Virus record (IMG/VR): IMGVR_UViG_2061766007_000586
Location: 224,001-288,000 of that record
Source of the DNA: a virus
Lineage: Duplodnaviria; Caudoviricetes
DNA: 64,000 nt
Strand: one strand, 5' to 3'
Positions 500 through 12,016 of the stretch are shown in pieces. The translations under genes and the position numbers were made by a program. Each line of letters opens with the position of its first letter. Within the stretch, counting starts at the first letter, position 1. The notes below the pieces were generated by a model. That model had not been told where the DNA came from and searched no databases. It was given only the letters and a program-made list of their open reading frames with translations.

Positions 500-589
500 T
501 GGCGAAGAGAGTGGGATTCGAACCCACGGAGGATTTTACTCCTCGGCTGTTTAGTAGACAGCTCCCTTAAACCGCTCGGGCATCTCTTC
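500..589 (-). tRNA. tRNA-Ser(ACT)
   Basis: acceptor GAAGAGA/TCTCTTC, anticodon arm GCTGT-CTACTAA-ACAGC, long variable arm, TTCGAAT T-loop, G73, encoded CCA. Confidence 0.92.
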
Positions 590-597
590 GTTTTATA

Positions 598-1047
598 TTA
601 TTCAAACTCTTCTTTTAATTTAAGAAACAGTTGATATCTTTCATTTCTTTTTGCTTCACGTTCTCTTTCATCCTGAGCATCTGATATTTTCTTCCACATA
701 TCATCCCAATCACTTTTAGCTTCTGCTAATGATAGAAATAGATAGGAAGCAGGACATATAAGATATCTTGATACACCATTTTCTGAATCATAACCAGCTG
801 TGTATTCGATGTGAAGAATATTGTTATCATTTATATTAACTTTAACAAGTTCATCTACATAAGTACCTTCTAATTCGTGAATAAGATTTCTGAGTAATTG
901 ATCTGTCTCTTTCCAGGTATCAATTCTATCTTTACAGATAGCAATTTTATCTTCATAATGATCATACTTGGCCTGTGACATTCTCTCAACAATGATCCTA
1001 TTATATTCTGTAGGATCCATAAATCTATTTTTTTGTATGGTTCGCAT
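598..1047 (-). CDS. hypothetical protein
   Basis: 149-aa ORF between RNA elements. Confidence 0.7.
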   Translation of the reverse strand: MRTIQKNRFMDPTEYNRIIVERMSQAKYDHYEDKIAICKDRIDTWKETDQLLRNLIHELEGTYVDELVKVNINDNNILHIEYTAGYDSENGVSRYLICPASYLFLSLAEAKSDWDDMWKKISDAQDEREREAKRNERYQLFLKLKEEFE

Positions 1048-1090
1048 GACGTTTCTCTCTGCTATTATAGAAATTTAAGAAAAATAAAAA

Positions 1091-1157
1091 TCACAATAGA
1101 ATATGTATAGGGTGAGAAACCGAGTCGGTGGGGAAATCCATACATACTCTATTATGA
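1091..1157 (-). ncRNA. stem-closed small RNA candidate
   Basis: 18-bp closing stem TCATAATAGAGTATGTAT/ATACATATTCTATTGTGA with G-U pairs on - strand. Confidence 0.4.
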
Positions 1158-1280
1158 AAAATCTTCACAAAGTTGCGCTTAATCTTCTCAATATATTTCC
1201 CTCATATTAGAGAAGTAGAGGCGTAGTGAAGTACCCATTAGGTATAGTATTATACTACATGCACAAAAATAAAATAAGTA

Positions 1281-1311
1281 CTTACTCCGACCCACTAGGA
1301 GTCGGAGTAAG
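1281..1311 (-). terminator. intrinsic terminator after tRNA-Ala
   Basis: 11-bp stem CTTACTCCGAC/GTCGGAGTAAG followed by T-rich run on - strand. Confidence 0.65.
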
Positions 1312-1326
1312 CTGAGGGAGGGGGAA

Positions 1327-1403
1327 TGGTGGACCGTACCAGACTCGAACTGGTGACATCCTGCTTGCAAAGCAGGTGCTCTAGCCAACTGAGCTAACGG
1401 CCC
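1327..1403 (-). tRNA. tRNA-Ala(TGC)
   Basis: cloverleaf, loop TTTGCAA, G3:U70, CCA. Confidence 0.97.
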
Positions 1404-1410
1404 ATAAGGG

Positions 1411-1658
1411 TTTCAGGTCTTAAAGACCAACATCTAAGTCTATAACCCTGACTTAGCATGCGCATGTTTGGCGCAGCGTTGCGACCAATGTCCGGCACGA
1501 CAGTTGGGGTCTGACGCACCTGTAAGATCCGTATTACTTGATAGGAAATCCCCATACGGCACTGAGACACGTAGTAGCTGTGCACTAATCAGCTAACAGA
1601 ACCTATCATGTGCTGACCAACTTTACGTTCGTTTCTACATGATCGTTAAGGCCTGAAA
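1411..1658. ncRNA. ~250-nt multibranch structured RNA candidate
   Basis: 13-bp terminal stem TTTCAGGTCTTAA/TTAAGGCCTGAAA enclosing at least 5 hairpins; GC-rich; fills the gap between two tRNAs. Confidence 0.55.
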
Positions 1659-1659
1659 A

Positions 1660-1734
1660 TGGAGCGCGTAAAGGGAATCGAACCCTTATCATCTGAGTGG
1701 AAGTCAGAAACTCTAGCCGTTGAGCTACACGCGC
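1660..1734 (-). tRNA. tRNA-Gly(TCC)
   Basis: cloverleaf, loop CTTCCAC, U73, CCA. Confidence 0.96.
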
Positions 1735-1748
1735 TTAACAAAATAAAA

Positions 1749-2000
1749 TGGATACAAATAGTCACCAAGATTGCGACCCCTGAACATGAGAGGGACGAGT
1801 CTTAGGAGCTCTCGAGCCTCGCATACTTGTGACGTTTAGTACCTTACCTTGACACTTTCTTCTTCAGCAGGTACTTGGTGATAATGGCGGCTGTTCTGGT
1901 ACGAACCCTAACCTTCTTGTGTAGCGTATTCAGTAATAGCAAGAACACATTACCCTGTCTCAATGAGACACTACATCCGTCTTTTTACTACTTGTATCCA
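1749..2000 (-). ncRNA. ~250-nt structured RNA candidate (paralog of 2190-2437)
   Basis: 14-bp terminal stem TGGATACAAGTAGT/ACTATTTGTATCCA with G-U on - strand; sequence blocks shared with 2190-2437. Confidence 0.6.
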
Positions 2001-2007
2001 AAAATGA

Positions 2008-2079
2008 TAGCGGGGAGGAGAATTGAACTCCTACATTTGGGTTATGAACCCAACCAGCCTTCCGTGGCTGTACCCCGCG
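2008..2079 (-). tRNA. initiator tRNA-fMet(CAT)
   Basis: C1:U72 mismatch, A11:U24, GGG/CCC anticodon stem, loop TTCATAA; followed by TCA rather than CCA. Confidence 0.9.
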
Positions 2080-2092
2080 ATAATATCAAAAA

Positions 2093-2181
2093 TCTCATTA
2101 GGCAAATGATGCCTGCATCAAAACTAACAAACCAATTAATAATTAATAAGTTTAAGTGAATTTTGAAATTGCCTAATGAGA
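2093..2181. ncRNA. stem-closed small RNA candidate
   Basis: perfect 13-bp terminal stem TCTCATTAGGCAA/TTGCCTAATGAGA. Confidence 0.45.
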
Positions 2182-2189
2182 AAGTAAAA

Positions 2190-2437
2190 TGGAAATTAAT
2201 TAGCTAGCATGATTTCGACTGTACGGGAAGGACTGAAGCCTTAGGAGGGTGGTAATACGTCAGTCCAATTCAAAAGTGAACATTTATCACGCATACCTTG
2301 ATCACTTTCTAACCTTTCCGAGCTCTATACGTCTCGCAGTACATACTAGTAAGAGTTTCGCCAGTACGTGAACTCTTGAAACCCCGTCTACAAGTTACCA
2401 CCTTGTAGTTACCTTTCTTTTTACTAACTAACTTCCA
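2190..2437 (-). ncRNA. ~250-nt structured RNA candidate (paralog of 1749-2000)
   Basis: 14-bp terminal stem TGGAAGTTAGTTAG/CTAATTAATTTCCA with G-U pairs on - strand; internal hairpins. Confidence 0.6.
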
Positions 2438-2447
2438 AAATAGGAAA

Positions 2448-2551
2448 TACCTGATGAGTAAAACATGATTAGGTGTGTGGACCTTTTATTCAACCCCATC
2501 TTTGTTAAAAATGGTTAATGTTTTTTCTAATCACACTCTACTCATCAAGTA
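2448..2551 (-). ncRNA. stem-closed small RNA candidate
   Basis: 25-bp terminal stem with several G-U pairs on - strand. Confidence 0.5.
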
Positions 2552-2560
2552 CAAAATGAA

Positions 2561-2624
2561 ATCTAGTTCATAACTTCGACTTCTTTGTACCATCTATATG
2601 GCGGTCTAATAATATAAACTAGAT
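2561..2624. ncRNA. stem-closed small RNA candidate
   Basis: terminal stem ATCTAGTT/AACTAGAT flanked by A-rich linkers. Confidence 0.35.
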
Positions 2625-2633
2625 AAAATAAAA

Positions 2634-2710
2634 TCAACCAGATAGCCATACAACTTAACCCTTTAACACATAAACAATTGTTTTTGTGAAATTTTTTACT
2701 ATCTGGTTGA
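2634..2710. ncRNA. stem-closed small RNA candidate
   Basis: perfect 12-bp terminal stem TCAACCAGATAG/CTATCTGGTTGA. Confidence 0.45.
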
Positions 2711-2713
2711 AAA

Positions 2714-2783
2714 TGGAGCAGGACCTACCAGGCAGCGTATGCATCGCTAAAGAGTCTCCTCTATAACGCCCAATGTGTCCTGC
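2714..2783 (-). ncRNA. 70-nt RNA with tRNA-type acceptor stem and CCA but no cloverleaf
   Basis: GCAGGAC/GTCCTGC + T + CCA; two internal hairpins. Confidence 0.5.
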
Positions 2784-2791
2784 ATGACAAT

Positions 2792-2869
2792 TGGTCGGGG
2801 CAACAGGATTCGAACCTGCGACATCTTGCTCCCAAAGCAAGCACTCTAGCCAGACTGAGTTATACCCCG
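2792..2869 (-). tRNA. tRNA-Pro(TGG)
   Basis: cloverleaf, loop TTTGGGA, CCA. Confidence 0.97.
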
Positions 2870-2885
2870 ATAAAATTCTTAAAAA

Positions 2886-3102
2886 GCACAGAAGAGGATA
2901 GTAAGCTAGCTACCATTCTGTGCCAAGGAGGACTCACCTTCCTCCAGGATTACGACTACGCGGGATTATTCGTAGAAACGTCTACCTTCTAATCTTGATA
3001 ATTTTAGCATCAAGCAACTTCAGTAGCAAGTTAACCTCATACTAGTGTTGTCCTTCTTAGGGCAAGTCGCATCAACACATGAGCTTTTAACTCGATGAGG
3101 TT
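2886..3102. ncRNA. hairpin-dense non-coding element
   Basis: successive stems GCACAGAA/TTCTGTGC, GGAGGA/TCCTCC, CAGGATTA/TAATCTTG, AACCTCAT/ATGAGGTT. Confidence 0.45.
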
Positions 3103-3107
3103 TAAAT

Positions 3108-3183
3108 TGGGTTGGATGATGGGGCTCGAACCCACAACATGCTGAGCCACAGTCAGCCGCTCTACCATTGAGCTACATCCAAC
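3108..3183 (-). tRNA. tRNA-His(GTG)
   Basis: G-1:C73, loop CTGTGGC, CCA. Confidence 0.97.
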
Positions 3184-3188
3184 ATAAA

Positions 3189-3590
3189 TTAATCATCTAG
3201 AAAATCAGGATTATTTTTAATGAATTCTTCATAACCCTGTTCTATAGATTCTTTTTTCTTTTGATCATGTTCACATATTTCAGCTTTTTCTGAACATATG
3301 AAAAAACCACAATTACGTGAACGTATTGTGTCCCAAGCGATTCTTTCTCTTAGCAAATTTGGATTCTTTGCCATTTGTGTTTGGATAGCGAGATTCACTG
3401 CACTACAATCGCCTTTTGGTAAAATTACCAAATTGCTTGCGTCACGATTCCAATCGTTACCATCCACGCGAAATGTATTGTCTCGCCCTTTTACATAAGC
3501 ACCTGTGGCAAGTGCTTCTTTCGGAACATGCTTATTGGCACGTTTCCCATTAAAAGCATTCGCTGGTTTCTTATTCGGTTTGGTAGACAT
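3189..3590 (-). CDS. hypothetical protein
   Basis: 133-aa ORF with AAGGA SD. Confidence 0.7.
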   Translation of the reverse strand: MSTKPNKKPANAFNGKRANKHVPKEALATGAYVKGRDNTFRVDGNDWNRDASNLVILPKGDCSAVNLAIQTQMAKNPNLLRERIAWDTIRSRNCGFFICSEKAEICEHDQKKKESIEQGYEEFIKNNPDFLDD

Positions 3591-3627
3591 AAAGTGATTT
3601 CCTTATTTCAAAAACGGTTATAGAATT

Positions 3628-4206
3628 TTATTTTTTAATTTGAACCCAACTAAAATCTAGATATGTTTTAATTGGTGGTTTTTTGAAATATTCGTCAACA
3701 GCTTTTTTAACACCAAAGACACGTTCAAAACATTTGGCGTTTATGTGTGGATCATTTGGATCAACGTAATCATGTCCTGAGATAATTCCACCAGGTTTTA
3801 CTTTAGGAACATAATTGTTAAGATCACGCTTTGCTGCTTCGTATCTATGATCTCCATCGATATAAATAAAATCAATAGAGTTATCTTCAAATCTGTCTAC
3901 AACTTCTTCAGAGTGTGCTTTTACTTTTTTAATAATGGGGTTCATAAAGTGCTTATAATCAAAAAAGATTTCAGCATATACGATACTGCTATAAGCACAG
4001 CAATCTTTTGGATCATAACCCATTTGCCAAGGATCAATGCAATAAAGTGTTTTAAAAGCGCCACTCTTAACAAACATGCTTGTACTCTCACCAGCATAAG
4101 AACCTATTTCTATACCAATGAGATCTTTCTTTCCTTTTAGATATTCATCTACAAAATCTTGTAGATGACTCATACCTGCTTCACGTTGTGGATATATTAA
4201 ATCCAT
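3628..4206 (-). CDS. class I SAM-dependent methyltransferase (Methyltransf_24-like)
   Basis: EIGSYAGES, IDPW, IYIDGDH, KPGGIISGHDY motifs. Confidence 0.88.
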   Translation of the reverse strand: MDLIYPQREAGMSHLQDFVDEYLKGKKDLIGIEIGSYAGESTSMFVKSGAFKTLYCIDPWQMGYDPKDCCAYSSIVYAEIFFDYKHFMNPIIKKVKAHSEEVVDRFEDNSIDFIYIDGDHRYEAAKRDLNNYVPKVKPGGIISGHDYVDPNDPHINAKCFERVFGVKKAVDEYFKKPPIKTYLDFSWVQIKK

Positions 4207-4226
4207 ATTACTTCTCCTTATTAAAA

Positions 4227-4359
4227 GACCAAAGGTGTGTTTCTACACCAAAAGTTTTCAGGCATGGACTACCATGCTTACTCGATTCGCACAAATCTAC
4301 TCGAGTCATCCAACTACTCCTTAGCTGATGGCTACTTCTAAGCCAACAGTCCTTCAGTC
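4227..4359 (-). ncRNA. mimic of 23S rRNA H43-H44 (L11-binding GTPase-associated centre)
   Basis: TGTTGGCTTAGAAGTAGCCATCA...GTGTAGAAACACAC matches 23S UGUUGGCUUAGAAGCAGCCAUCA...GCGUAAUAGCUCAC; closing stem GACTGAAGG/CCTTTGGTC. Confidence 0.8.
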
Positions 4360-4364
4360 AACAA

Positions 4365-4456
4365 TGGCGGTGAAGGTGGGATTCGAACCCACGGACAGTC
4401 TCTCAACCGTCGCTGCTTTTCAAGAACAGAGCCATAGACCTCTCGACCACTTCACC
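4365..4456 (-). tRNA. tRNA-Ser(TGA)
   Basis: long variable arm, loop CTTGAAA, G73, CCA. Confidence 0.96.
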
Positions 4457-4460
4457 AAAA

Positions 4461-4934
4461 TTATTTATATTTTACATGATGACCATGTATAGATTTTCGT
4501 TCACCACGTGCTACTCGTTCAACACATACAGGAATTAATCCGTAATAACTTGCAAAGTCAGTAGCACTTTCAAATTCTTTTCCTGTATCAAGATCAATAA
4601 CAGGTTTAGAAAAATGATTTTCCTTTCCGTGTTTTCCGTAAAAAGGATTTTTCTCACCTTTTCGAGTTTCTTTTAATTCTTTATTTGATTTTTTAGTATG
4701 ACAACTATGGCAGAGTAATTGACATTTTTGCAATTCTGTTTCAGTTTCTTGTTTTGATCTATTTAGCAGATCACTAATATTAAATCTTTTTTCTACAGAA
4801 TTGATGTGATCAAATTCTAAATGTTCTGTTGATCCGCATTTGACACATTTTCCACCAAGTTTTGAAAGTAATTCATTTCTTCGTTTGTGATAATATTTTC
4901 TACTATAGTTTCGATGATAATCACGATTCATCAT
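4461..4934 (-). CDS. HNH homing endonuclease with NUMOD-like C-terminal DNA-binding motifs
   Basis: CxxC...LEFDH...CQLLCHSCH; GEKNPFYGKH; DTGKEFESA; own TATATTAC promoter at 4972-4979. Confidence 0.88.
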   Translation of the reverse strand: MMNRDYHRNYSRKYYHKRRNELLSKLGGKCVKCGSTEHLEFDHINSVEKRFNISDLLNRSKQETETELQKCQLLCHSCHTKKSNKELKETRKGEKNPFYGKHGKENHFSKPVIDLDTGKEFESATDFASYYGLIPVCVERVARGERKSIHGHHVKYK

Positions 4935-5026
4935 AATACTACTCCTTTGTTTGAGTGTATAAACTATAATAGTAATATATGTTCAAAAAGAAAATGGTAA
5001 TACTTTACCATTCTCTTATCAAAAAA

Positions 5027-5101
5027 TGGCATTCCGACAGGGAATCGAACCCTGATTAATAGACTGAAAATCTACTGTCCTAACCGTTAGACGACCGGAA
5101 C
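5027..5101 (-). tRNA. tRNA-Glu(TTC)
   Basis: cloverleaf, loop TTTTCAG, CCA. Confidence 0.95.
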
Positions 5102-5105
5102 ATCA

Positions 5106-5615
5106 TCATGATTTATTTAACTTAATGATTTTTTCTATGATGCTGGTGGTACTATAACCTTCTTTAAAATCAAGAATTTTAATTTCACACTTAACGGTGT
5201 CCAGTGCGTTCTTTTCTTCTTGATTTAATCCAGCTATATAATCTCCACCTTTTACATAAAAATCTGGATGAAGTTGAAGAATTTCATTTTCACATGTAGG
5301 GGAATCAAAAATAACAACGTGATACACACATGTGAGACTTGCAAGAGCATAAGCTCTATCTTGCTCATTATTGATAGGTCGGTGATCACCTTTTAAAGCT
5401 TTAACCGATTTATCACTATTGAGTAAGACAAATAATTTTCCGAACTTAGCAGCATTGTTGAGAAATTCTAGATGTCCACGATGGAGAATGTCAAAACATC
5501 CATTTGTTAGAACAACTGGAATATTGTCAAAATGAAGACATTCTCGTTCAATGATTGCTCCATCAAGATCAGTAATTGCACCTTTAATGTAATGATCTAG
5601 AATATTATCTGACAT
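5106..5615 (-). CDS. RfaE/HldE domain II-like heptose-1-phosphate adenylyltransferase (cytidylyltransferase family)
   Basis: TNGCFDILHRGH, LNSDKSVKALKG..RPI, KGGDY, GYSTTSII; likely start 5615 because 5642 lies inside the upstream terminator. Confidence 0.88.
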   Translation of the reverse strand: MSDNILDHYIKGAITDLDGAIIERECLHFDNIPVVLTNGCFDILHRGHLEFLNNAAKFGKLFVLLNSDKSVKALKGDHRPINNEQDRAYALASLTCVYHVVIFDSPTCENEILQLHPDFYVKGGDYIAGLNQEEKNALDTVKCEIKILDFKEGYSTTSIIEKIIKLNKS

Positions 5616-5636
5616 AATAGACCTTGAAATAAAAGA

Positions 5637-5668
5637 ATACACTGCATGGGTTTTACCATGCAGTGTAT
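5637..5668 (-). terminator. intrinsic terminator after DUF2828 gene
   Basis: 13-bp stem ATACACTGCATGG/CCATGCAGTGTAT followed by T-rich tail. Confidence 0.75.
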
Positions 5669-5678
5669 AGAATAACGG

Positions 5679-7160
5679 TTAACCAACCGTGATCTTTGCA
5701 TAACGTTCTGCGTTCAGAACGTTAAGCATCATCTCGATTGGCGTATCGGTGATGGCTCTCATCACATTCTTGAAGGATGAAACGGCTTGGCCCGAGCAGC
5801 AGATAGCACCCTTCCTGTCTTTATCGACGTGGAAGGTATCGTGCCTTGACTCTACGTTCCAGAATACGATACCAGGAATCTGGTATCCTTCTTCTTCGAA
5901 ACGTTTCTTGAGAGAATCATAGAACACCCAGTCAGTGTAGCGAGTACCTTCATCGATTTCCATATCGGAAATGATGATGATAGCCTTCGGCATATCTTCT
6001 GGAGCAACATGATGCTCTGTTGCGATCTTGAGAATCTTCTCAAACGCAGCTTCCAGATTTGTCGAACCACCCCAATCATTAGTATTGATACTTTGGAGTT
6101 TCTGAGCGAGCGTCTGACCCTTCAGGTGATGAAGAGTACAGTTCGAAGAGAACGACATCCACAGGTCCTTATAAGGACCTACGTTACGTTCGGCAAAGTA
6201 AATTGCCAAACCAACTGCAGATGCCATAGGACGACCAGCCATACTTCCCGAAGTATCGGCGATTACGATTGCAGACGAATTGCCTACAACGTAGTTCGGA
6301 AGGGACTTCCACTGACCTTCGACGATAGGATCTTCTTCGAAAGTGACCCCATTCCAATCCCATCTTCTTCCTATGTACTTTTCCACAAGATTGTACGGAT
6401 ACAGAGTACCAGCATTGATCTTGGCAGTACCGGCTGTGAGATTCTTGAGATAATCGAAGAAACGATCTCCATCGTGTTTCGGAAATGCCATCTTGTAGCG
6501 AAGCATGGCATGACTCGGAACAGCTTCGTAGTTGATTTCGTTCCAAGTACCATTCGACATGTGTGTTTCCACAATGTTGATGTACTTCCTCAAGCCACGA
6601 AGAAGACGCTTGAACATGCGTACTTCCATTCCGAACTTCAGGGCAGTCATGATGCCAAGTTTACGGGTCTCTTTGGAAGATCCGTCTGGAGTTTTAATCC
6701 ACTTGGCAAGAAGACTTACCGGCTTGTTCTGTCCCATGGCTTCAAGATCAGCCACGAACTGCTTCTTCATCGAAACCCACATATCGTCCTCTAAAGGAGT
6801 TCCGATCAGTGTGTATAAGTCGTCATAACGACCATACTCACCAATCAGATCGATATTGGGTCTGATACATTCCGGGTAGTGCTGGGCAGCATACTTCAGA
6901 ATCTGACGGAATGATTTCCTCTCACCGAGGCCTTCTCTTACATCACGACTGTAAAAGAGGCATCTCGTGGCGAGAAGTTTGTCCTCTGCATAGGCGTCAG
7001 AGAACAGACGTTCGATGCGGGTCTGCTCCGTGTTACGAAGAGCACCGCAGACACTGAAAAAGTCCAGAACTTTACTACCTGTCGTGTTAAGACAGGTAGC
7101 TCCATTTTCGGTGCGAGAGTGGGTTGCTTCCTTTGCGAAAGCGTTTGCAAATGTTGTCAT
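5679..7160 (-). CDS. DUF2828-family Ro60/TROVE-like protein with vWA (MIDAS) domain
   Basis: TENGA, RDVREGLGER, LLAKW; MIDAS DTSGSM...GGSTN...ISDME; FWNV; start 7160 with GAAAGGAG SD. Confidence 0.85.
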   Translation of the reverse strand: MTTFANAFAKEATHSRTENGATCLNTTGSKVLDFFSVCGALRNTEQTRIERLFSDAYAEDKLLATRCLFYSRDVREGLGERKSFRQILKYAAQHYPECIRPNIDLIGEYGRYDDLYTLIGTPLEDDMWVSMKKQFVADLEAMGQNKPVSLLAKWIKTPDGSSKETRKLGIMTALKFGMEVRMFKRLLRGLRKYINIVETHMSNGTWNEINYEAVPSHAMLRYKMAFPKHDGDRFFDYLKNLTAGTAKINAGTLYPYNLVEKYIGRRWDWNGVTFEEDPIVEGQWKSLPNYVVGNSSAIVIADTSGSMAGRPMASAVGLAIYFAERNVGPYKDLWMSFSSNCTLHHLKGQTLAQKLQSINTNDWGGSTNLEAAFEKILKIATEHHVAPEDMPKAIIIISDMEIDEGTRYTDWVFYDSLKKRFEEEGYQIPGIVFWNVESRHDTFHVDKDRKGAICCSGQAVSSFKNVMRAITDTPIEMMLNVLNAERYAKITVG

Positions 7161-7174
7161 AATAAAGCTCCTTT

Positions 7175-7235
7175 CATGACACGTTAAATGCATAAATTTG
7201 CAGTTTATGAAATTGGGTTTGCTGTTAGCGTCACA
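7175..7235 (-). ncRNA. CAGCAA-motif hairpin A, abutting the SD of the DUF2828 gene
   Basis: TGTGACGC-TAACAGCAA...GTGTCATG; inner CATAAA-CTGCAAA-TTTATG. Confidence 0.6.
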
Positions 7236-7244
7236 TTCACTAAA

Positions 7245-7301
7245 CAGGACACGGAATAATAACTAAAAAGTAATTATTTGATTGATTTGCTGGATGTGCC
7301 C
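7245..7301 (-). ncRNA. CAGCAA-motif hairpin B
   Basis: GGGCAC-ATCCAGCAA...GTGTCCTG. Confidence 0.6.
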
Positions 7302-7327
7302 CAATGGTGATAAAGGATCTAAAGAAA

Positions 7328-7579
7328 TAGAAAGAGTAGGATTGGATACCTACATTTCAGCTTGAGGATTGCTTTTTGTTCGAAGTTGCAATCTTACTTC
7401 ACCTAGTTAATCTTCTTGGCGATGGCGCAATACTTACTTTCGCGTAAGCATGCAGTTACACTAGAATTTAATAATAGATAAAGTTTTGTTTGCTGTAAAT
7501 GCCACATACATGACATTCTTCCAAACTTTGTTCTAGTTGATTTACATCTCTATAAATCAACTTATTGAACTATCTTTCT
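7328..7579 (-). ncRNA. expanded tRNA-like RNA 3 (~250 nt)
   Basis: AGAAAGA/TCTTTCT acceptor; TA-GTTC...GAAC D-stem with extra hairpin; GTAGG/CCTAC T-stem; permuted CAGCAA hairpin. Confidence 0.7.
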
Positions 7580-7593
7580 AAAATACGAAAAGA

Positions 7594-7707
7594 TGAGCAG
7601 AGTAGGACTCGAACCTACATTCCGAGATTACTAATCTAAGTATCTTGCAGTTAATGACCTGAGAAGGACATATTTTTACGTGTTCTCTCCTGTTGAACTA
7701 TCTGCTC
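7594..7707 (-). ncRNA. expanded tRNA-like RNA 2 (~114 nt)
   Basis: GAGCAGA/TCTGCTC acceptor; GTTC/GAAC D-stem; GTAGG-TTCGAGT-CCTAC T-arm; anticodon region replaced. Confidence 0.78.
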
Positions 7708-7718
7708 GTAAAGTGAAA

Positions 7719-7765
7719 CAGGACGCATTGATCATTTATTGATGATAAATTGCTGTGAGCGTCCC
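7719..7765 (-). ncRNA. CAGCAA-motif hairpin C
   Basis: GGGACGC-TCACAGCAA...GCGTCCTG. Confidence 0.6.
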
Positions 7766-7771
7766 AGAAAA

Positions 7772-7906
7772 TGGTGGAGAGGGTAGGATTTTCACCTACA
7801 CATAGAAGTCCATTGATCTATTTAATTAAAAATAAATTTGCGGCGAGTGTCACACTGCAACATGACACCACATAAATACTTCTTGCTCTAATTGAGCTAC
7901 CTCTCC
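7772..7906 (-). ncRNA. expanded tRNA-like RNA 1 (135 nt, CCA encoded)
   Basis: GGAGAGG/CCTCTCC-A-CCA; GCTC/GAGC D-arm; AGAAGT/ACTTCT stem enclosing ~70 nt; GTAGG-TGAAAAT-CCTAC. Confidence 0.8.
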
Positions 7907-7954
7907 AAAAGGTACAGTAGAGATATATATAATCGTAATTTATTTGAGTTAAAA

Positions 7955-8031
7955 TGGTACACCAGACGGGGTTCGAACCCATGACCCTCTGCTTAGAAGG
8001 CAGATGCTCTATCCTACTGAGCTACTGGTGC
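7955..8031 (-). tRNA. tRNA-Arg(TCT)
   Basis: cloverleaf, loop CTTCTAA, CCA. Confidence 0.97.
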
Positions 8032-8513
8032 ACATTATCTGATTCTAATGGAGACCTTACGGTTTGTTCAAGTTTAGTGAAAAACAATACTTCAAAACCT
8101 ATTATACCATTTGCGTTTAACCAATCTGCTACTAAATGTCTATGACAAAATTCCATAGGTTTTTCATAGCAAATTAAACATGGTTGTTTTCCGTCAGTTT
8201 TTTCAAGCAATTCTGACATAACTTGTTTTGGATCTAGTTTACCTAAAATTTCTTCATTGAAGCGTTTTGTGTAAATTTCATTATCGTGGTGGTTGAATTT
8301 CCAATCACTGTAAATACTCCAGGAAGGTGCTAGTTTTTTATACTGAATCCCAGAATACCAATCAGGTGCTTTACCACAGATAGAGACAGGAACTATAGAA
8401 CCAGGCATGTTTAGAATATCATTAAGTTTAGCAAAATATGAAGTTCTAAACTCTTGCCATTGAATTTCTTTCCCATTTATAGTAAGTGGCCATATAGGTT
8501 GTAAGTTTGACAT
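8022..8513 (-). CDS. DUF488-family protein
   Basis: LAPS...Y..RF...CLICYEKP.EFCHRHLVADWL; start 8513 with AAGGA SD (the longer ORF begins inside tRNA-Gln). Confidence 0.8.
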   Translation of the reverse strand: MSNLQPIWPLTINGKEIQWQEFRTSYFAKLNDILNMPGSIVPVSICGKAPDWYSGIQYKKLAPSWSIYSDWKFNHHDNEIYTKRFNEEILGKLDPKQVMSELLEKTDGKQPCLICYEKPMEFCHRHLVADWLNANGIIGFEVLFFTKLEQTVRSPLESDNVHQ

Positions 8514-8530
8514 TTTGATTTTCCTTAAAA

Positions 8531-8604
8531 TGGTAGTCCCGTCGGGATTTGAACCCAAACTAACTGGACCAAAACCAGTTGTGCTGCCATTACACCACAG
8601 GACT
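8531..8604 (-). tRNA. tRNA-Gln(TTG)
   Basis: cloverleaf, loop TTTTGGT, CCA. Confidence 0.95.
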
Positions 8605-8680
8605 ATTTATACTTTCGTATACAATATCAAATATACACAAAAATATATTGTGGATGCAGGATAAAACCTGCATCCGTTTG

Positions 8681-9091
8681 TTACTTATTTTTAAAGTAGT
8701 TGATACAGTTTTGCATAAACCAAATAAATGGATTAAGCAAAAATCTGTATGCACGAAGTTCTTCTGTATCTTGTACGGTTGGATTTACTAATGCATTATC
8801 AATTGCATTTTGTATAGCTTTTTTGGGAGTAAGCCCAGTAGCTATAATCCAATCTTTAGAAGAATTAAACTCAATAGTCCTGGCAAAGATAATTTCACCA
8901 TGCCCAGCGGACTTATTGATGTAGCAGACATATTGATCGTTGAAATGAAGTCTATTGTCAGTAGGGTCTAATTTCCTGACATAAATGCACTTTTTACCAT
9001 ACATGTTTCCGTAAAAATTATGATTATTAATACATGCAGGTCTAAAGTCGTGTTCAAGTAACCAATATATCTCGTTAAAGTCTGCAGTCAT
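8681..9091 (-). CDS. hypothetical protein
   Basis: 136-aa ORF followed by a hairpin terminator at ~8652-8675. Confidence 0.7.
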   Translation of the reverse strand: MTADFNEIYWLLEHDFRPACINNHNFYGNMYGKKCIYVRKLDPTDNRLHFNDQYVCYINKSAGHGEIIFARTIEFNSSKDWIIATGLTPKKAIQNAIDNALVNPTVQDTEELRAYRFLLNPFIWFMQNCINYFKNK

Positions 9092-9261
9092 AAATTTTCC
9101 CTATGGTTAGTTAATCTTCAACTGCGAATATATAAACTACACGAGGTAGAGAGATGTTACATGACCCATAACATAATAGTAATATATGTATTAAATAAAA
9201 ATGAAAGAAAAAAGAACCCAGGATTGCTCCTGGGTTTTTCGCCGTTAGGCAGTCGTTTCAG

Positions 9262-9423
9262 TTAGGCAGTGGCTTCAGCCGACTCGTCAGCTTCAGCATT
9301 TTTCTCTGCGTCAGCTGCTTTGTTGGCATCATGTTCCCACTTTTTGCCGATGGCGTAGCAGGTACCAAAGGTACCGATGACTCCGAGGACGACTCCGGCG
9401 GCGAGAATGGCGATGACTTTCAT
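9262..9423 (-). CDS. small membrane protein with N-terminal TM helix
   Basis: AAGGAG SD before ATG 9423; MKVIAILAAGVVLGVIG. Confidence 0.7.
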   Translation of the reverse strand: MKVIAILAAGVVLGVIGTFGTCYAIGKKWEHDANKAADAEKNAEADESAEATA

Positions 9424-9466
9424 AGTTGAACTCCTTATGTTGAGTTGGTTGTTAAAGGCATTTGCC

Positions 9467-9886
9467 TTAGGATTTGTGAATGGCGAGATCAATTCCGACA
9501 GCAGCCGATGCAATCAGAATACCGATCGAGACGAAACCGACTTTGGTCCAGAACGATGTTTTCTTCGGCTGGGCTTCGACAGCAGTCCATATTTCCCAAC
9601 GGAATTTGGCACCGTCGGGAAGCTTGTCAGCACCGAGAGGAAGTCTGGGCCCATCGTACTGGGCCACACAAACCACATCGCCGGGCTTGACTGCCGTAGA
9701 GACACGATTGAAATCCACCTGCTTTCCGAGAAGATCAGAAAGGATCTTGGCGGTGTCTTCGTGGCCGACCACAGAAGTGGCATCTTTCGCCTGAGCTTTG
9801 AAGGTTTCAAGATCAACGATCTTGACGTCGAAGTGCATGTCGTTATGGACCATGCCGGAACTGAAAACGTTGTTGAGGTACTTCAT
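9467..9886 (-). CDS. acrIII-1: AcrIII-1 / DUF1874 (STIV B116-like) cA4 ring nuclease with C-terminal TM helix
   Basis: YLxNxFSxxM, SxxGHxxT, NRV, QxxxxRLxxG motifs as recalled for SIRV1 gp29 and YddF. Confidence 0.85.
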   Translation of the reverse strand: MKYLNNVFSSGMVHNDMHFDVKIVDLETFKAQAKDATSVVGHEDTAKILSDLLGKQVDFNRVSTAVKPGDVVCVAQYDGPRLPLGADKLPDGAKFRWEIWTAVEAQPKKTSFWTKVGFVSIGILIASAAVGIDLAIHKS

Positions 9887-9910
9887 ATTCGAATCTCCTT
9901 ATGTTGTTTG

Positions 9911-10276
9911 TTAAACCGAGTAGAAACACTGATGTATGAGACTTGCGAGATTCCAGTACTTATGGTCTTTGGCAAGTTGTTCTTCGTACTTCAGCTGTTG
10001 ACATTTCTCTGTACGAGAAAGGTTGTTGTTGTGAGTAATTTCCGTTACACGGTTTCTGATCGCTTCTTCGCTGTAGTAATTATCAGCAGTAGAGTTGGTT
10101 TTGCTGTTGGCCGTGATTCCTTTTTCCGCAAGAATACGTTCAACTTCTTCATGAACGAGCTGCTGAAGCATATTTGCAAACTCTTCCTGCTTGCGACGTT
10201 CTTTCATAGTTTCAGCATAATTGTCAAGCTGCTGACCGACTGCGGTGAGGAAAGCATTTGCGAAAGTGTTGTTCAT
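9911..10276 (-). CDS. hypothetical early protein
   Basis: 121 aa, AAGGAG SD. Confidence 0.75.
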   Translation of the reverse strand: MNNTFANAFLTAVGQQLDNYAETMKERRKQEEFANMLQQLVHEEVERILAEKGITANSKTNSTADNYYSEEAIRNRVTEITHNNNLSRTEKCQQLKYEEQLAKDHKYWNLASLIHQCFYSV

Positions 10277-10296
10277 AATCGATACTCCTTATTGAG

Positions 10297-10590
10297 TTAG
10301 TTTTTGGCGATGAAAATTCCACCAGCTATTGCTGCGACTGCGCCGATGACTGCAGTAACACCGAGGGCTGGAAGAACGACGTAGTGAAAAGGATCTTCTT
10401 TACGAAGACGAGCTTTCAAAGTTTTGAGCCTTCTTTTATATATTGCAACATTTTCCATGTAACCAAGAGCAAATTCTTGATCACGGAAACGTTCACAATC
10501 CCGAATGCATTCTTTGATTTTTTCGACTTTGTTAGGAGCGAAGAAGATCTCATTGTCTTCACGAAAGAACTGATCTTTGAAGAATTCCAT
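10297..10590 (-). CDS. tail-anchored membrane protein
   Basis: C-terminal hydrophobic helix, SD. Confidence 0.75.
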   Translation of the reverse strand: MEFFKDQFFREDNEIFFAPNKVEKIKECIRDCERFRDQEFALGYMENVAIYKRRLKTLKARLRKEDPFHYVVLPALGVTAVIGAVAAIAGGIFIAKN

Positions 10591-10605
10591 AAGTGTTCTC
10601 CTTAC

Positions 10606-10854
10606 TTAAGTGTTGTAAGTAATTCCTAAAGCAATAGCACCGATGGCTCCAACAATTGCTAAAACTGTGAGAGCAGAAATGACGTGCTTGGAATGTTCTT
10701 TCAATTCCTTTTCAGCTTTCTGCTTAGCAGCTTCAGCGTCCTGACGAGCAGCTTCGGCTTCTTGAATCAGCTCATTCATAAGATCAGTTGTCCCATTAGG
10801 ATACATCCGATTGATGAGCTCTAACTGGCGTTTACGTCTGTGAGGATTAGCCAT
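10606..10854 (-). CDS. tail-anchored coiled-coil membrane protein
   Basis: C-terminal TM helix; TATATTGC promoter at 10898-10905. Confidence 0.75.
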   Translation of the reverse strand: MANPHRRKRQLELINRMYPNGTTDLMNELIQEAEAARQDAEAAKQKAEKELKEHSKHVISALTVLAIVGAIGAIALGITYNT

Positions 10855-10968
10855 GATGATTCTCCTTATTAGAAGTTTTTATTCATAGTTCACTGTAGCA
10901 ATATATACGTGACGGATTTTGATCTACATTCTATAGTCTTATCCTATTTAATATAAGGAGATAACATT

Positions 10969-11901
10969 ATGCCTAAAAACGGAAAGTACAAGGTTCTCTG
11001 CCTGGTTGGTGGAGGAAAGTTCGGAGCAATCCCTGCTAAATTCTTATCCTACGTTTCTAAGCCAACGGATGATGGGAAAGAAGGTGCTCTGTCTGAAGTT
11101 GACTTCTTATCAGGAACTTCAATTGGTGGTATTTTAGCAGCAGGTTATTCTGCTGGTCATACCTTCAAAGAAGTATCTGAAATGTTCAACAAGAGAGCAA
11201 AAGATTGCTTTGTGAAAAGATGGCAAGCAAAAATTTCACCACTTGCTTGTCCTACTTATAAAGGTGAAGCCTTACGTGAAGTAATTCACGACATTATTGG
11301 TGATCTTACTTTAGGTCAAACCAAAGAAGTTTATCCACATCTTTCTACAGTAATTCCTGCATTGGATCTTACTGCTGACGATTATCTGGTTTTCCAGACA
11401 ATTAAGAAGAATGATAATTGGGATGTTCCTTTGGTTGACGTTGCACAAATGACATCTGCTGCTCAGACATATTTCCCCGGAGTTAACTTCCGAGGTCATT
11501 GTATAGTAGATGCAGGTGTGATCGATGTTCCTTCATTAATCACATGTTCTACATCTGTACGTGGAAAAGGTGGTATTCACTTTGAAGACATGGATGTACT
11601 CTTAGTGGGTATTGGTGATGATAGTAATGCCGCTCATTGCGATCCTATTACACCTGAAAAGTACAACAAGTATACAGTTGTTGAAGTCTTATTAAAGGTA
11701 ATTAGACCTTACCTGACTTTTGGCAATAAACTTGCAACCCTTTATTGGGGAAGACATATGGAATTCAATTCCTTTACGTACTTTAATCCTATTAAAATTT
11801 CCGGTGATCTTGACGATCCGACAGACGTACCGCAACTCATGGATGAGTGTGAAAAATACAAAGACGAGTTTATTCAAACTTGGAATAGCTGGTTAGCTTA
11901 A
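10969..11901 (+). CDS. patatin-like phospholipase
   Basis: GGGKFG, GTSIG, TSAA.TYF, DAG motifs. Confidence 0.88.
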   Translation: MPKNGKYKVLCLVGGGKFGAIPAKFLSYVSKPTDDGKEGALSEVDFLSGTSIGGILAAGYSAGHTFKEVSEMFNKRAKDCFVKRWQAKISPLACPTYKGEALREVIHDIIGDLTLGQTKEVYPHLSTVIPALDLTADDYLVFQTIKKNDNWDVPLVDVAQMTSAAQTYFPGVNFRGHCIVDAGVIDVPSLITCSTSVRGKGGIHFEDMDVLLVGIGDDSNAAHCDPITPEKYNKYTVVEVLLKVIRPYLTFGNKLATLYWGRHMEFNSFTYFNPIKISGDLDDPTDVPQLMDECEKYKDEFIQTWNSWLA

Positions 11902-11939
11902 AGTACTATGGCCGTAAGGCAACAGTATCATAATAGTGT

Positions 11940-12016
11940 GATGGTAGACGGGAATTCCCGTCTACCATCCTTTGTAGTTTTTAACAAAAAAACAACCCGT
12001 CTTACGACGGGTTGTT
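11940..12016. terminator. pair of terminators between convergent genes
   Basis: perfect palindrome at 11940-11969 and hairpin at 11991-12016 with A/T tracts. Confidence 0.75.

What the first reader, a model, noticed from the sequence alone, without database searches (positions are those of the whole stretch)
5679..7906. Ro60/TROVE-like DUF2828 gene preceded by six RNAs sharing one motif, three grafted into tRNA scaffolds
Seen on the - strand: three free hairpins (7719-7765, 7245-7301, 7175-7235) of form G(A/G)C(G/A)C-NNN-CAGCAA...G(T/C)GTC(C/A)TG. Interspersed are three tRNA-like RNAs (7772-7906, 7594-7707, 7328-7579) with intact acceptor, D and GTAGG/CCTAC T stems. Their anticodon regions carry the same helix in circularly permuted form: GTGTCA..TGACAC-TCGCCGCAA, ATGTCCT..AGGTCAT-TAACTGCAA and ATGTCAT..GTGGCAT-TTACAGCAA. 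The downstream protein has a helical N-region and a MIDAS vWA domain. Established: Ro60/Rsr has TROVE + vWA domains and binds Y RNAs, and bacterial YrlA RNAs contain a tRNA-like module. Inference: this is a parallel RNP system in which helix+CNGCAA is the protein-binding site. The topology is inverted relative to YrlA because the tRNA ends are free and one encodes CCA. Possible roles are tRNA decoy, RNA repair or anti-ribotoxin.
Basis: partly seen in the sequence, partly recalled or inferred. Interest (0 to 1): 0.9.

Follow-up and report, generated by a model that had tools for sequence, protein, structure and literature searches.

The report
Phage Ro60-like protein with handle-tagged tRNAs
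A 318-kb phage encodes a ring-shaped Ro60-like protein preceded by six small RNAs (three hairpins, two tRNA-shaped scaffolds and one otherwise complete tRNA) that share one conserved "handle"; the same handle travels with this protein family in hundreds of phages, matches no Rfam family and no phage paper I found, and is probably the protein's RNA partner.

Summary
The ORF at 5679-7160 (-) hits DUF2828 and DUF7788. Its AlphaFold model (pLDDT 93.9) matches Ro60/Rsr over its full length. Upstream lie six RNAs that share one handle: a covarying 7-9-bp helix followed, exactly 10 nt from its first G, by C(A/C/U)GCAA.

- H1-H3 carry the handle at their paired 5'/3' ends.
- T1 and T3 are tRNA-shaped scaffolds whose anticodon arm is capped by a circularly permuted handle.
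- T2 is a complete tRNA-Thr(AGU) with a 41-nt handle inserted in the 5' strand of the anticodon stem.
- A seventh copy sits in a tRNA-Ile(GAU) about 8 kb away.

Covariance models trained only on other phages find five of the seven copies. They give no other credible hit in the 318-kb genome. The free-form model hits 80/80 viral loci and 62/80 independent Lachnospiraceae loci, always on the gene's strand and just upstream of the gene.

Rfam holds no matching family. The YrlA motif (GNCGAA) is different. Dictyostelid Class I RNAs share the stem and the CUUACAGCAA motif.

My reading is a Ro60/Y-RNA-type particle whose RNAs display tRNA or anticodon-arm modules, probably used for counter-defence or tRNA repair. 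The function is inferred, not shown. This scan has already noted the system in at least 76 other genomes.

The parts
5679..7160 (-). Gene for the Ro60-like protein (493 aa): DUF2828 (TROVE-like helical ring) plus DUF7788/vWA with a MIDAS motif. The true start is the ATG at 7160; the in-frame ATG at 7193 lies inside H3.
   Evidence: Pfam DUF7788 4.6e-39 and DUF2828 3.3e-38. PHROG 850 'RNA-binding protein' 2.7e-124. AF2 pLDDT 93.9. Foldseek top hits are Ro60 1yvr, 2nvo and 9l5y. Homologues align from residue 1-4.
7168..7174 (-). Shine-Dalgarno sequence AAAGGAG, directly after the 3' G of H3.
   Evidence: Read from the sequence. In 60 of 79 related viral loci the last free element ends 18-20 nt before the start codon.
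7175..7234 (-). H3: free Y-like RNA. GUGACGC-UAA-CAGCAA ... GUGUCAU-G. The inner hairpin CAUAAA-CUGCAAA-UUUAUG looks like an anticodon stem-loop (GCA).
   Evidence: R1 36.4 bits, E 3e-6; sequence.
7245..7302 (-). H2: free Y-like RNA. GGGGCAC-AUC-CAGCAA ... GUGUCCU-G.
   Evidence: R1 26.2 bits, E 8e-4. Conserved in relative L098.
7328..7579 (-). T3: 252-nt tRNA-shaped scaffold with acceptor, D and T stems, an extra hairpin in the D loop and a variable region of about 125 nt. Its anticodon-arm helix AAGUUU/AAACUU is capped by the permuted handle at 7490-7521. No anticodon loop.
   Evidence: Fold. R2 38.6 bits, E 1e-7 at 7490-7521. The D-loop hairpin changes compensatorily in L098.
7594..7707 (-). 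T2: tRNA-Thr(AGU) carrying a 41-nt insert (7638-7678) after nt 29, in the 5' strand of the anticodon stem. The insert holds a divergent handle, AUGUCCU-UCUC-AGGUCAU-UAA-CUGCAA.
   Evidence: ARAGORN calls tRNA-Thr(agt) only after the insert is deleted. Restored arm CGAGA-UUAGUAA-UCUCG. The insert is identical in L098. Not found by R2.
7719..7765 (-). H1: free Y-like RNA. GGGACGC-UCA-CAGCAA ... GCGUCCU-G.
   Evidence: R1 40.7 bits, E 3e-7. Compensatory change to GGGACUC/GAGUCC in L098.
7772..7906 (-). T1: 135-nt tRNA-shaped RNA ending in CCA. The D loop lacks GG and the T loop reads UGAAAAU. The extended anticodon arm (AGAAG/CUUCU plus UAUUUA/UAAAUA) is capped by the permuted handle at 7838-7873 (GUGUCA..UGACAC-UCG-CCGCAA).
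   Evidence: Rfam tRNA 42.3 bits with a large insertion. Fold. R2 22.1 bits, E 1e-3 to 4e-3.
7955..8031 (-). Ordinary tRNA-Arg(UCU) heading the cluster (context only; no handle).
   Evidence: ARAGORN and Rfam, 69 bits.

Best explanation
The region encodes a divergent Ro60/Y-RNA-type ribonucleoprotein system.

Shown:
- The DUF2828/DUF7788 protein has the Ro60 architecture, a helical TROVE-like ring plus a vWA/MIDAS domain.
- The phage supplies a conserved RNA handle: a 7-9-bp helix that begins G.U, N-N, G-C, A-U and is followed, exactly 10 nt from the first G, by single-stranded (U)UA-CAGCAA.
- The handle comes in three formats. Free Y-like RNAs close it with their own 5'/3' ends (H1-H3). tRNA-shaped scaffolds carry a circularly permuted handle that caps the anticodon arm (T1, T3). 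Complete tRNAs carry a 39-41-nt handle inserted in the 5' strand of the anticodon stem (T2 = Thr-AGU; an Ile-GAU about 8 kb away).

Inferred:
- The protein binds the handle, as Ro60 binds the conserved helix of Y RNAs.
- The rest of each RNA is the effector module. Across the family this is repeatedly an anticodon stem-loop, a T arm or a whole tRNA. The particle therefore presents tRNA-like surfaces to tRNA-directed enzymes.
- The most likely use is counter-defence against tRNA- or anticodon-cleaving host immunity, by decoy, shielding or holding cleaved tRNA for repair.
- The copy abutting the ribosome-binding site (H3) may also let the protein repress its own translation.

Odds: the protein and handle RNAs are cognate partners, about 0.85; the purpose is tRNA-centred counter-defence or repair, about 0.45.
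For: Protein:
- Foldseek ranks Ro60/Rsr/phiLo-Ro60 as hits 1-13, on a model with pLDDT 93.9.
- One Atlas cluster carries both DUF2828 (81%) and TROVE (16%).
- Relatives are annotated 'Ro-like RNA binding protein'.

RNA:
- Free form: 95.8% of cells paired; 52 double-change cells against 18.4+-3.7 in shuffles, 0/500.
- Embedded form: 96.8% paired; 54 against 14.3+-5.0, 0/500.
- The spacing from G1 to CAGCAA is a constant 10 nt.

Linkage:
- R1 hits 80/80 viral loci with 173 hits, all on the gene strand and within 540 nt upstream. R2 gives 136 hits, all on the gene strand.
- An independent set of Lachnospiraceae assemblies gives 107 R1 hits in 62/80 loci, all on the gene strand and within 560 nt upstream.
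- R1 also finds the three elements next to the 35%-identical gene of mycobacteriophage Faith1.
- In this genome the models pick only the known cluster and the tRNA-Ile.

Conservation: a 93%-identical relative keeps all six elements, with compensatory changes in H1 and T3.

tRNA theme:
- 39 of 47 inflated tRNAs regain a near-perfect anticodon arm when the insert is removed, against 3.7 expected.
- 58 of 111 unique free elements carry an anticodon-loop-like hairpin, and 27 carry a T-loop motif.

Function:
- Felixounavirus Bas63 gp130 is Ro60-like and sits next to the tRNA array. Its deletion sensitises the phage to the Ppl defence (PMC11482910).
- Cluster L mycobacteriophages combine a Ro-like protein with an RNA ligase and a polynucleotide kinase (PMC13148394).
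Against: - No binding, expression or end-mapping data exist for this phage or its family.
- Pfam TROVE does not hit the protein, and a sequence-profile search of the PDB finds no Ro60.
- The YrlA/Y-RNA Ro-binding motif GNCGAAN0-1G (PMC4201824) is absent, so the mode of binding may differ.
- T2's handle is degenerate and is missed by R2.
- The phage has no RtcB or Rnl2-type ligase, which weakens a self-contained repair model.
- No conserved protein neighbour points to an effector.
- I did not verify that Bas63 gp130 belongs to DUF2828. That rests on its description and on the identical layout in Felixounavirus HY02.
Confidence: 0.72

Rival explanations
1. The embedded handles are intron-like inserts. 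They are excised, by a host or phage nuclease plus a ligase with the Ro-like protein as cofactor or chaperone, to give ordinary tRNA-Thr and tRNA-Ile. The free hairpins are excised or decayed copies.
For: - In-silico deletion of 41 or 39 nt gives textbook tRNAs that ARAGORN accepts.
- 39 of 47 related inflated tRNAs behave the same way, against 3.7 expected.
- The phage has no other tRNA with anticodon GAU or AGU.
- In 60 of 63 cases the tagged anticodon is not duplicated within the fetched locus.
Against: - No known bacterial mechanism removes a roughly 40-nt insert from position 28-30 of the anticodon stem. There is no group I or II signature in Rfam and no RtcB or Rnl2-type ligase in the phage.
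- T1 and T3 cannot be reduced to a tRNA by any single deletion.
- The free elements are the most numerous and most conserved form. They have their own anticodon-arm or T-arm modules and a fixed position next to the RBS, which excised introns would not explain.
- The non-redundancy argument is weak, because phage tRNA sets are sparse anyway.
Confidence: 0.12
2. The elements are cis-acting signals of the tRNA operon, not trans-acting partner RNAs. They could be RNase processing sites, terminators or attenuators, or an autoregulatory leader of the DUF2828 mRNA.
For: - The last element abuts the Shine-Dalgarno sequence, here and in 60 of 79 loci.
- All elements lie on the gene strand, just upstream, among co-transcribed tRNAs.
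Against: - There are several copies per locus, and some lie downstream of the gene or kilobases away inside tRNAs.
- An invariant single-stranded hexamer at fixed spacing from a covarying helix is typical of a protein-binding site, not of a terminator.
- The variable parts mimic tRNA arms.
- An autoregulatory role for the last copy is compatible with the main explanation and does not replace it.
Confidence: 0.08
3. A miniature mobile or repeated DNA element has spread through tRNA arrays. It has no RNA-level function and is unrelated to the neighbouring protein.
For: - HNH homing endonucleases are interspersed in these tRNA arrays.
- T1 shows an ATTTAT direct repeat on both sides of its insert.
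Against: - The helix covaries while the sequence diverges.
- Strand and position relative to DUF2828 are fixed across phages of Actinomycetota, Pseudomonadota and Bacillota.
- There are no copies elsewhere in 318 kb.
Confidence: 0.03

Closest known systems
Ro60 (Rsr) with Y RNAs, including bacterial and phage YrlA (Chen et al. 2014, PMC4201824) and Thermus phage phiLo Ro60 with Yrl1/Yrl2 (PMC12135203)
   Same: - A ring-shaped helical-repeat domain plus a vWA protein.
- Small RNAs encoded next to the gene on the same strand.
- A helix formed by the RNA's 5'/3' ends as the presumed binding site.
- The remainder of the RNA mimics tRNA.
   Different: - The protein is DUF2828/DUF7788, with no Pfam TROVE hit and only 10-16% identity to the solved Ro60 structures.
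- The conserved RNA motif is UUACAGCAA at a fixed 10-nt spacing, not GNCGAAN0-1G or CGAA.
- No Rfam Y-RNA family matches.
- The handle also occurs circularly permuted inside tRNA scaffolds and inside complete tRNAs with free acceptor ends. That is the reverse of YrlA, where the tRNA-like part is closed and the ends form the Ro site.
Class I RNAs of dictyostelid social amoebae (Kjellin et al. 2021, PMC7919456)
   Same: - Length of 42-65 nt.
- An invariant 5' G and a short covarying stem joining the 5' and 3' ends.
- An unstructured 11-nt motif CCUUACAGCAA directly after the 5' stem strand, a 3' ..CUG(U) end and a variable remainder.
- In the published sequences (e.g. GUUGAC-CUUA-CAGCAA...GUCAAC-UG) the distance from G1 to CAGCAA is 10 nt, as it is here.
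   Different: - They are eukaryotic and Pol-dependent genes with a DUSE promoter.
- The only known direct binder is the RRM protein Rnp1A.
- No link to a DUF2828 or Ro-like protein has been reported. I could not test whether dictyostelids encode one.
- The resemblance could be homology or convergence.
Felixounavirus Bas63 gp130 (PhageMaP preprint, PMC11482910)
   Same: - A Ro60-like phage protein encoded at the edge of the tRNA array.
- The authors speculate that some 'tRNA genes' are Y RNAs.
- The gene counters a host defence, Ppl.
- Felixounavirus HY02 has a DUF2828 homologue (31% identity) followed by four stem+CAGCAA elements among its tRNAs.
   Different: - No RNA partner was defined there.
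- The helix sequence of the Felix-type elements (AGAAGACC../..GGUCUGG) is too divergent for my model R1.
- I saw no handle-bearing true tRNA in HY02.
Phage tRNAs used to evade tRNA-cleaving defences (e.g. PMC11555353; bioRxiv 10.1101/2024.01.02.573894)
   Same: Phage-encoded tRNA-shaped RNAs placed in tRNA arrays, with the anticodon arm as the key feature.
   Different: Those are ordinary tRNAs that replace or outlast cleaved host tRNAs. Here the tRNA bodies carry a protein-binding handle and come with a dedicated Ro-like protein. I saw only the titles and abstracts of those papers.

Membership tests
Ro60/TROVE proteins | Helical-repeat (TROVE) ring followed by a vWA domain, seen as full-length structural similarity to solved Ro60 | tested here: met
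   Foldseek hits 1-13 are Ro60/Rsr/TROVE structures, E 2.6e-8 to 1.3e-4, TM 0.46-0.59 over 515-590 columns. The model has pLDDT 93.9.
Ro60/TROVE proteins | Match to Pfam TROVE (PF05731), or sequence-level similarity to solved Ro60 | tested here: not met
   Pfam gives DUF2828, DUF7788 and weak VWA only. A profile search of PDB sequences finds no Ro60. One related Atlas cluster has TROVE on 16% of its members.
Ro60/TROVE proteins | MIDAS motif (DxSxS) in the vWA domain | tested here: met
   D302, S304 and S306 are invariant in 62 homologues.
Ro60/TROVE proteins | Binds Y RNA on the outer ring surface and misfolded RNA ends in the central cavity | not testable with these tools
   Needs EMSA, CLIP or a structure.
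Y RNA / YrlA | Encoded close to the Ro gene on the same strand | tested here: met
   All 173+136 viral hits and all 107 hits in bacterial assemblies are on the gene strand and next to the gene.
Y RNA / YrlA | 5' and 3' ends pair to form the conserved Ro-binding stem | tested here: met
   Met for H1-H3. Not met for T1-T3, where the stem is a local hairpin, i.e. permuted.
Y RNA / YrlA | Conserved GNCGAAN0-1G (CGAA) motif in the stem region (Chen 2014; phiLo paper) | tested here: not met
   The invariant motif here is CAGCAA preceded by (U)UA.
Y RNA / YrlA | Match to an Rfam Y-RNA family | tested here: not met
   Nothing but tRNA was found at E<=1 in window 1-12000, at gathering score in 10 loci, or at E<=0.1 in the Faith1 and HY02 loci.
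Dictyostelid Class I RNA | 5' G, short terminal stem, adjacent CCUUACAGCAA, 3' CUG(U), about 60 nt | tested here: inconclusive
   H1-H3 share the 5' G, the terminal stem, CAGCAA at +10 and a 3' ..CCUG/..CAUG end at 47-60 nt. They were compared by eye with published sequences. No model-based test was run, and the promoter and partner features do not apply.
tRNA | Cloverleaf with a 7-bp acceptor stem, D arm, 5-bp anticodon stem with 7-nt loop, and T arm | tested here: not met
   As encoded, ARAGORN in default mode calls none of T1-T3 or the Ile gene. T2 and Ile meet the definition only after the insert is removed. T1 and T3 have no anticodon loop.

The most novel reading that the evidence does not exclude
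The stem+UUACAGCAA handle is the universal RNA ligand of the DUF2828 branch of the Ro60 superfamily. Phages graft it onto real tRNAs and anticodon-arm mimics to build protein-guarded decoys or repair substrates against tRNA-cleaving immunity. The long-unexplained Class I RNAs of Dictyostelium would then be the eukaryotic members of the same RNA family, and so would have a Ro-like partner of their own.
Probability: 0.3. Interest if true: 0.9.

Novelty: new variant of a known kind. Interest (0 to 1): 0.8.

Why it matters
Ro60/Y-RNA particles are known from animals and a few bacteria, and what they do in microbes is still poorly understood. This locus belongs to a much larger protein branch. It has 6,422 clusters at 50% identity, 710 cultured-phage records and 354 IMG/VR loci, and its RNA partner has not been described.

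The partner RNA is easy to recognise. It exists in free and circularly permuted forms. Unusually, it is also built into otherwise complete tRNAs, which gives a natural example of a tRNA tagged with a protein-binding handle.

If the particle acts against tRNA-cleaving defences, it would be a new class of counter-defence. One relative's gene already counters the Ppl system.

The shared motif also gives a concrete, testable lead on the function of Dictyostelium Class I RNAs, which have been open since 2004.

Tried and rejected
- A loose regex for helix+CNGCAA over the genome gave about 240 hits, mostly noise, and was abandoned in favour of covariance models.
- The search for related loci with the single protein found nothing in IMG/VR. 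An alignment was needed. Alignment A2 was too diverse for the genome scan, so A1 was used instead.
- My first classifier of free versus embedded forms mislabelled many embedded copies. It was replaced by the fixed 10-nt spacing rule.
- The R2 hit at genome 94596-94630 (E 0.06) lies in an apparently coding stretch and lacks the helix consensus, so I treat it as a false positive. The R2 hit at 7219-7257 pairs the 3' strand of H2 with the 5' strand of H3 and is an artefact of adjacency.
- I searched the phage for RtcB and Rnl2-type RNA ligases and found none. The T4 Rnl1 and Pnkp families were not searched.
- Gene neighbourhoods of two homologues showed only HNH endonucleases, and in one case a Tad3-family gene. 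There was no conserved partner.
- ARAGORN's intron mode proposes 'tRNA-Stop(tta)' for T1. In the relative L098 the same element is called Lys(ttt), and indels fall in the proposed anticodon arm, so I reject a suppressor-tRNA reading.
- Literature searches for DUF2828, Ro-like, Ro60 plus phage plus tRNA, and the RNA motif found no description of these RNAs.
- The supplements of Chen 2014 are not held, so I could not check which 22 phages they scored.
- The Atlas search returned only viral and bacterial clusters, so the question of a dictyostelid DUF2828 protein stays open.
Full report
**Setting.** The window is bases 224001-288000 of a 318,604-bp IMG/VR phage record. The finding lies on the - strand inside a long tRNA array. 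ARAGORN finds 10 ordinary tRNAs in the window and 20 in the genome.

The ORF at 5679-7193 has two in-frame ATGs. Homologues align from MTTFAN.., and a Shine-Dalgarno sequence AAAGGAG lies at 7168-7174. The gene therefore starts at 7160 and encodes 493 aa.

**The protein.**
- Pfam gives DUF2828 (3.3e-38) and DUF7788 (4.6e-39) with weak vWA hits. PHROGs gives phrog_850 'RNA-binding protein'.
- The family is very large. It has more than 7,000 close homologues and 6,422 representatives of 50%-identity clusters. It occurs in 354 IMG/VR loci and 710 cultured-phage records.
- The hosts of those phages include Escherichia, Salmonella, Mycobacterium, Listeria, Staphylococcus, Enterococcus, Campylobacter, Bacillus and Vibrio. 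Annotations there include 'Ro-like RNA binding protein', 'RNA-binding protein', 'DUF2828' and 'vWFA'.
- An AlphaFold2 model built on 62 diverse homologues has pLDDT 93.9 and pTM 0.93.
- Foldseek against the PDB ranks Xenopus and human Ro60, Deinococcus Rsr and Thermus phage phiLo Ro60 as hits 1-13. They match over the full length with TM 0.46-0.59. Isolated vWA domains follow.
- Sequence methods do not see this relationship.
- The MIDAS residues are invariant.
- The protein therefore has the Ro60 fold but belongs to a separate sequence family.

- *Free hairpins.* H1 (7719-7765), H2 (7245-7302) and H3 (7175-7234) have a terminal helix, three unpaired bases, CAGCAA, a variable hairpin, the returning strand and a 3' G.
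- *tRNA-shaped elements.* T1 (7772-7906), T2 (7594-7707) and T3 (7328-7579) have acceptor, D and T stems. All three share the T stem GTAGG/CCTAC.
- *T1 and T3.* Their anticodon arm is extended and capped by a local hairpin followed by NNN-C(C/A)GCAA. There is no anticodon loop.
- *T2.* This one is different. Removing 41 nt (7638-7678) after nucleotide 29 leaves CGAGA-UUAGUAA-UCUCG and a 73-nt tRNA-Thr(AGU). ARAGORN accepts the shortened sequence and rejects the full gene.
Deleting the insert gives a perfect 76-nt tRNA with CCA.

**The handle is a family, not a local oddity.**
- The 450 nt upstream of DUF2828 genes in 15 diverse IMG/VR loci all carry elements such as GUGAYGC-UUA-CAGCAA...GCRUCAU-G or GGGACRC-UUA-CAGCAA...GYGUCCU-G.
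- In 33 non-redundant free elements the helix begins G.U, (U-A or G-C), G-C, A-U, Y-R and continues for 2-4 variable pairs. CAGCAA always starts 10 nt (once 11) after the first G. The RNA ends ..UC(A/C)U-G.
- On alignment A3, 95.8% of cells are paired. There are 52 cells changed on both sides, against 18.4+-3.7 in shuffles (0 of 500 reach the observed value). Sliding the partner strand destroys the pairing.
- The embedded form reads ..N-N-U-C-A-U-G, then about 3 nt, then G-U-G-A-N-N.., then UA-CAGCAA. This is exactly the free form with its 3' end joined to its 5' end.
- On alignment A4 (36 sequences), 96.8% of cells are paired, with 54 double changes against 14.3+-5.0 (0 of 500).

**Blind recovery and linkage.** Models R1 (free form) and R2 (embedded form) were built without any sequence from this genome.

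- *In this genome.* R1 finds H1, H3 and H2 (E 3e-7, 3e-6, 8e-4) and nothing else in the 318 kb at E<=1.
- R2 finds T3 (E 1e-7), the tRNA-Ile insert (1e-4) and T1 (4e-3). Its remaining hits are an adjacency artefact and weak noise.
- T2's handle is missed. It has U.U at the A4-U pair and reads CUGCAA, yet it is identical in a 93%-identical relative.
- *In 80 IMG/VR loci (725 kb, both strands).* R1 gives 173 hits in 80/80 loci. All are on the gene strand and all end within 540 nt upstream of the start codon.
- R2 gives 136 hits in the same loci, all on the gene strand, upstream or shortly downstream of the gene. These loci include the training sequences.
- *Independent test.* I fetched 80 loci from bacterial assemblies, mostly rumen and gut Lachnospiraceae. 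They include isolates such as Roseburia hominis An869, and the loci are presumably prophages.
- R1 gives 107 hits there, in 62 loci. Again all are on the gene strand and within 560 nt upstream.
- *Distant relatives.* In mycobacteriophage Faith1 the protein is only 35% identical. R1 finds three elements just downstream of that gene.
- The middle Faith1 element contains an anticodon-like hairpin, a T arm, a closed acceptor-like hairpin and a D arm, which makes it a YrlA-like permuted tRNA.
- Felixounavirus HY02 (31% identity) has four AGAAGACC..UA-CAGCAA..GGUCUGG elements among its tRNAs.
- *Rfam.* It reports nothing but tRNA in any of these regions.

**What the variable parts look like.**
- Of 111 unique free elements, 58 contain a 5-bp stem with a 7-nt loop that has U33 and a purine at position 37. 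The commonest 'anticodons' are GUU, GCU and UUU. The hairpin mostly starts 9-10 nt after CAGCAA.
- 27 of the 111 contain a T-loop motif.
- H3 in the window has such a hairpin, CAUAAA-CUGCAAA-UUUAUG.
- Among 47 analysable inflated tRNAs, 39 regain a near-perfect anticodon arm when the insert is removed. Shuffling predicts 3.7. The insert usually follows the 2nd or 3rd nucleotide of the 5' strand of the anticodon stem.
- In every format, then, the handle sits just 5' of an anticodon arm or in its place.
- The last free element ends 18-20 nt before the start codon in 60 of 79 loci. Here H3 ends 14 nt before it and runs straight into the Shine-Dalgarno sequence.

**Close relative.** A 318,677-bp phage (locus L098) is 93% identical across the RNA region and keeps all six elements.
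- H1's helix changes from GGGACGC/GCGUCC to GGGACUC/GAGUCC.
- T3's D-loop hairpin changes compensatorily.
- T1 has indels in the region ARAGORN would call an anticodon arm.
- L098 lacks the DUF488 ORF that separates tRNA-Gln and tRNA-Arg in the window.

**Comparison with what is known.**
- Chen et al. 2014 defined YrlA RNAs near TROVE-annotated genes. Their conserved motif is GNCGAAN0-1G, and the tRNA-like domain is closed while the RNA ends form the Ro site.
- The phiLo study uses the same CGAA motif.
- Neither motif occurs here, and the topology of T1-T3 is the reverse.
- The PhageMaP preprint reports that Bas63 gp130 is Ro60-like, sits beside the tRNA array and counters the Ppl defence. It only speculates that some tRNA genes may be Y RNAs.
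- LeBron (cluster L1) combines a Ro-like protein with an RNA ligase and a polynucleotide kinase.
- The Iyer/Aravind jumbo-phage survey mentions ROT/TROVE proteins as RNA-repair platforms with a tRNA-like partner in a few jumbo phages.
- None of the papers I could search describes the stem+CAGCAA RNAs in phages.

**The Class I RNA lead.** Earlier follow-up notes of this scan pointed to dictyostelid Class I RNAs, and I checked this.
- The published description is a 42-65-nt RNA with an invariant 5' G, a short covarying terminal stem and an unstructured 11-nt motif next to the 5' strand.
- The deposited sequences read GUUGAC-CUUA-CAGCAA...GUCAAC-UG, with the motif CCUUACAGCAA.
- They share the same hexamer, the same 10-nt spacing from G1 and the same 3' UG.
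- I could not test whether dictyostelids encode a DUF2828 protein.

**Mechanism.**
- *Shown:* the fold of the protein; the conservation, covariation and two topologies of the handle; its strict linkage to the gene; and the tRNA-derived nature of the attached modules.
- *Inferred:* the protein binds the handle. The RNAs act as Y-RNA-like adaptors that present anticodon arms, T arms or entire tRNAs. The system serves tRNA-centred counter-defence or repair. H3 may mediate autogenous translational control.
- The phage lacks RtcB and Rnl2-type ligases, so any repair would depend on host enzymes.
- Whether the tagged tRNA-Thr and tRNA-Ile are used in translation, with or without removal of the handle, is open. 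They are the only genes with those anticodons in the phage. That is weak evidence, because phage tRNA sets are sparse.

**Verdict.** This is a divergent branch of the Ro60/Y-RNA kind of particle. Its RNA ligand matches no Rfam family and no phage paper I could search.

Two features stand out. The ligand is grafted, circularly permuted, into tRNA scaffolds and into true tRNAs. Its motif also matches that of the unexplained amoebal Class I RNAs.

The same system has been noted by this scan in at least 76 other genomes. The distinctive content of this window is the full range of formats side by side, including handle-bearing genuine tRNAs.

Noticed in passing
window 63367-64000 (-), running past the window end (L003:1351-2403): A 350-aa ORF with a sub-threshold DUF2828 match (25.9 bits, profile positions 303-368) and 33% identity over 40 aa to the main protein. 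It has no vWA domain. It may be a second, truncated TROVE-like paralogue about 56 kb away.
   Followed up: partly
window 8022-8558 (-): A DUF488-N3a ORF sits between tRNA-Gln and tRNA-Arg. In the 93%-identical relative L098 the two tRNAs are adjacent and the ORF is absent, so it is a recent insertion or deletion inside the tRNA array.
   Followed up: partly
G000:C1:180664-180836 (-), outside the window: A 173-nt tRNA-shaped element next to tRNA-Leu(UAA). It has a canonical T arm (GCAAG-UUCGAAU-CUUGC) and about 100 nt in place of the anticodon region, but no CAGCAA handle.
   Followed up: no
window 6001-7000: The Ro-like gene has 47% G+C against 34-38% in its flanks. Its closest relatives (52-58% identity) are in Lachnospiraceae assemblies and gut or rumen phages. 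This suggests acquisition by transfer or strong compositional constraint.
   Followed up: no
window 9467-9886 (-): The equivalent ORF in L098 (804-1223) carries PF08960 STIV_B116-like, the family of the AcrIII-1 ring nucleases. That puts a likely anti-CRISPR gene 2 kb from the Ro-like locus.
   Followed up: no
window 10969-11901 (+): A 310-aa ORF with a patatin-like phospholipase domain (7.9e-18).
   Followed up: no
window 4461-4934 (-): An HNH plus NUMOD3 homing-endonuclease-like ORF inside the tRNA array. HNH_3 genes are likewise interspersed around the DUF2828 gene in a 179-kb relative.
   Followed up: no
NCBI assembly GCA_024712465.1, 33.6-kb contig with homologue P0012: The gene two positions downstream of the DUF2828 homologue carries PF25185 (Tad3), an anti-defence family. 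This is a single example of an anti-defence neighbourhood.
   Followed up: no
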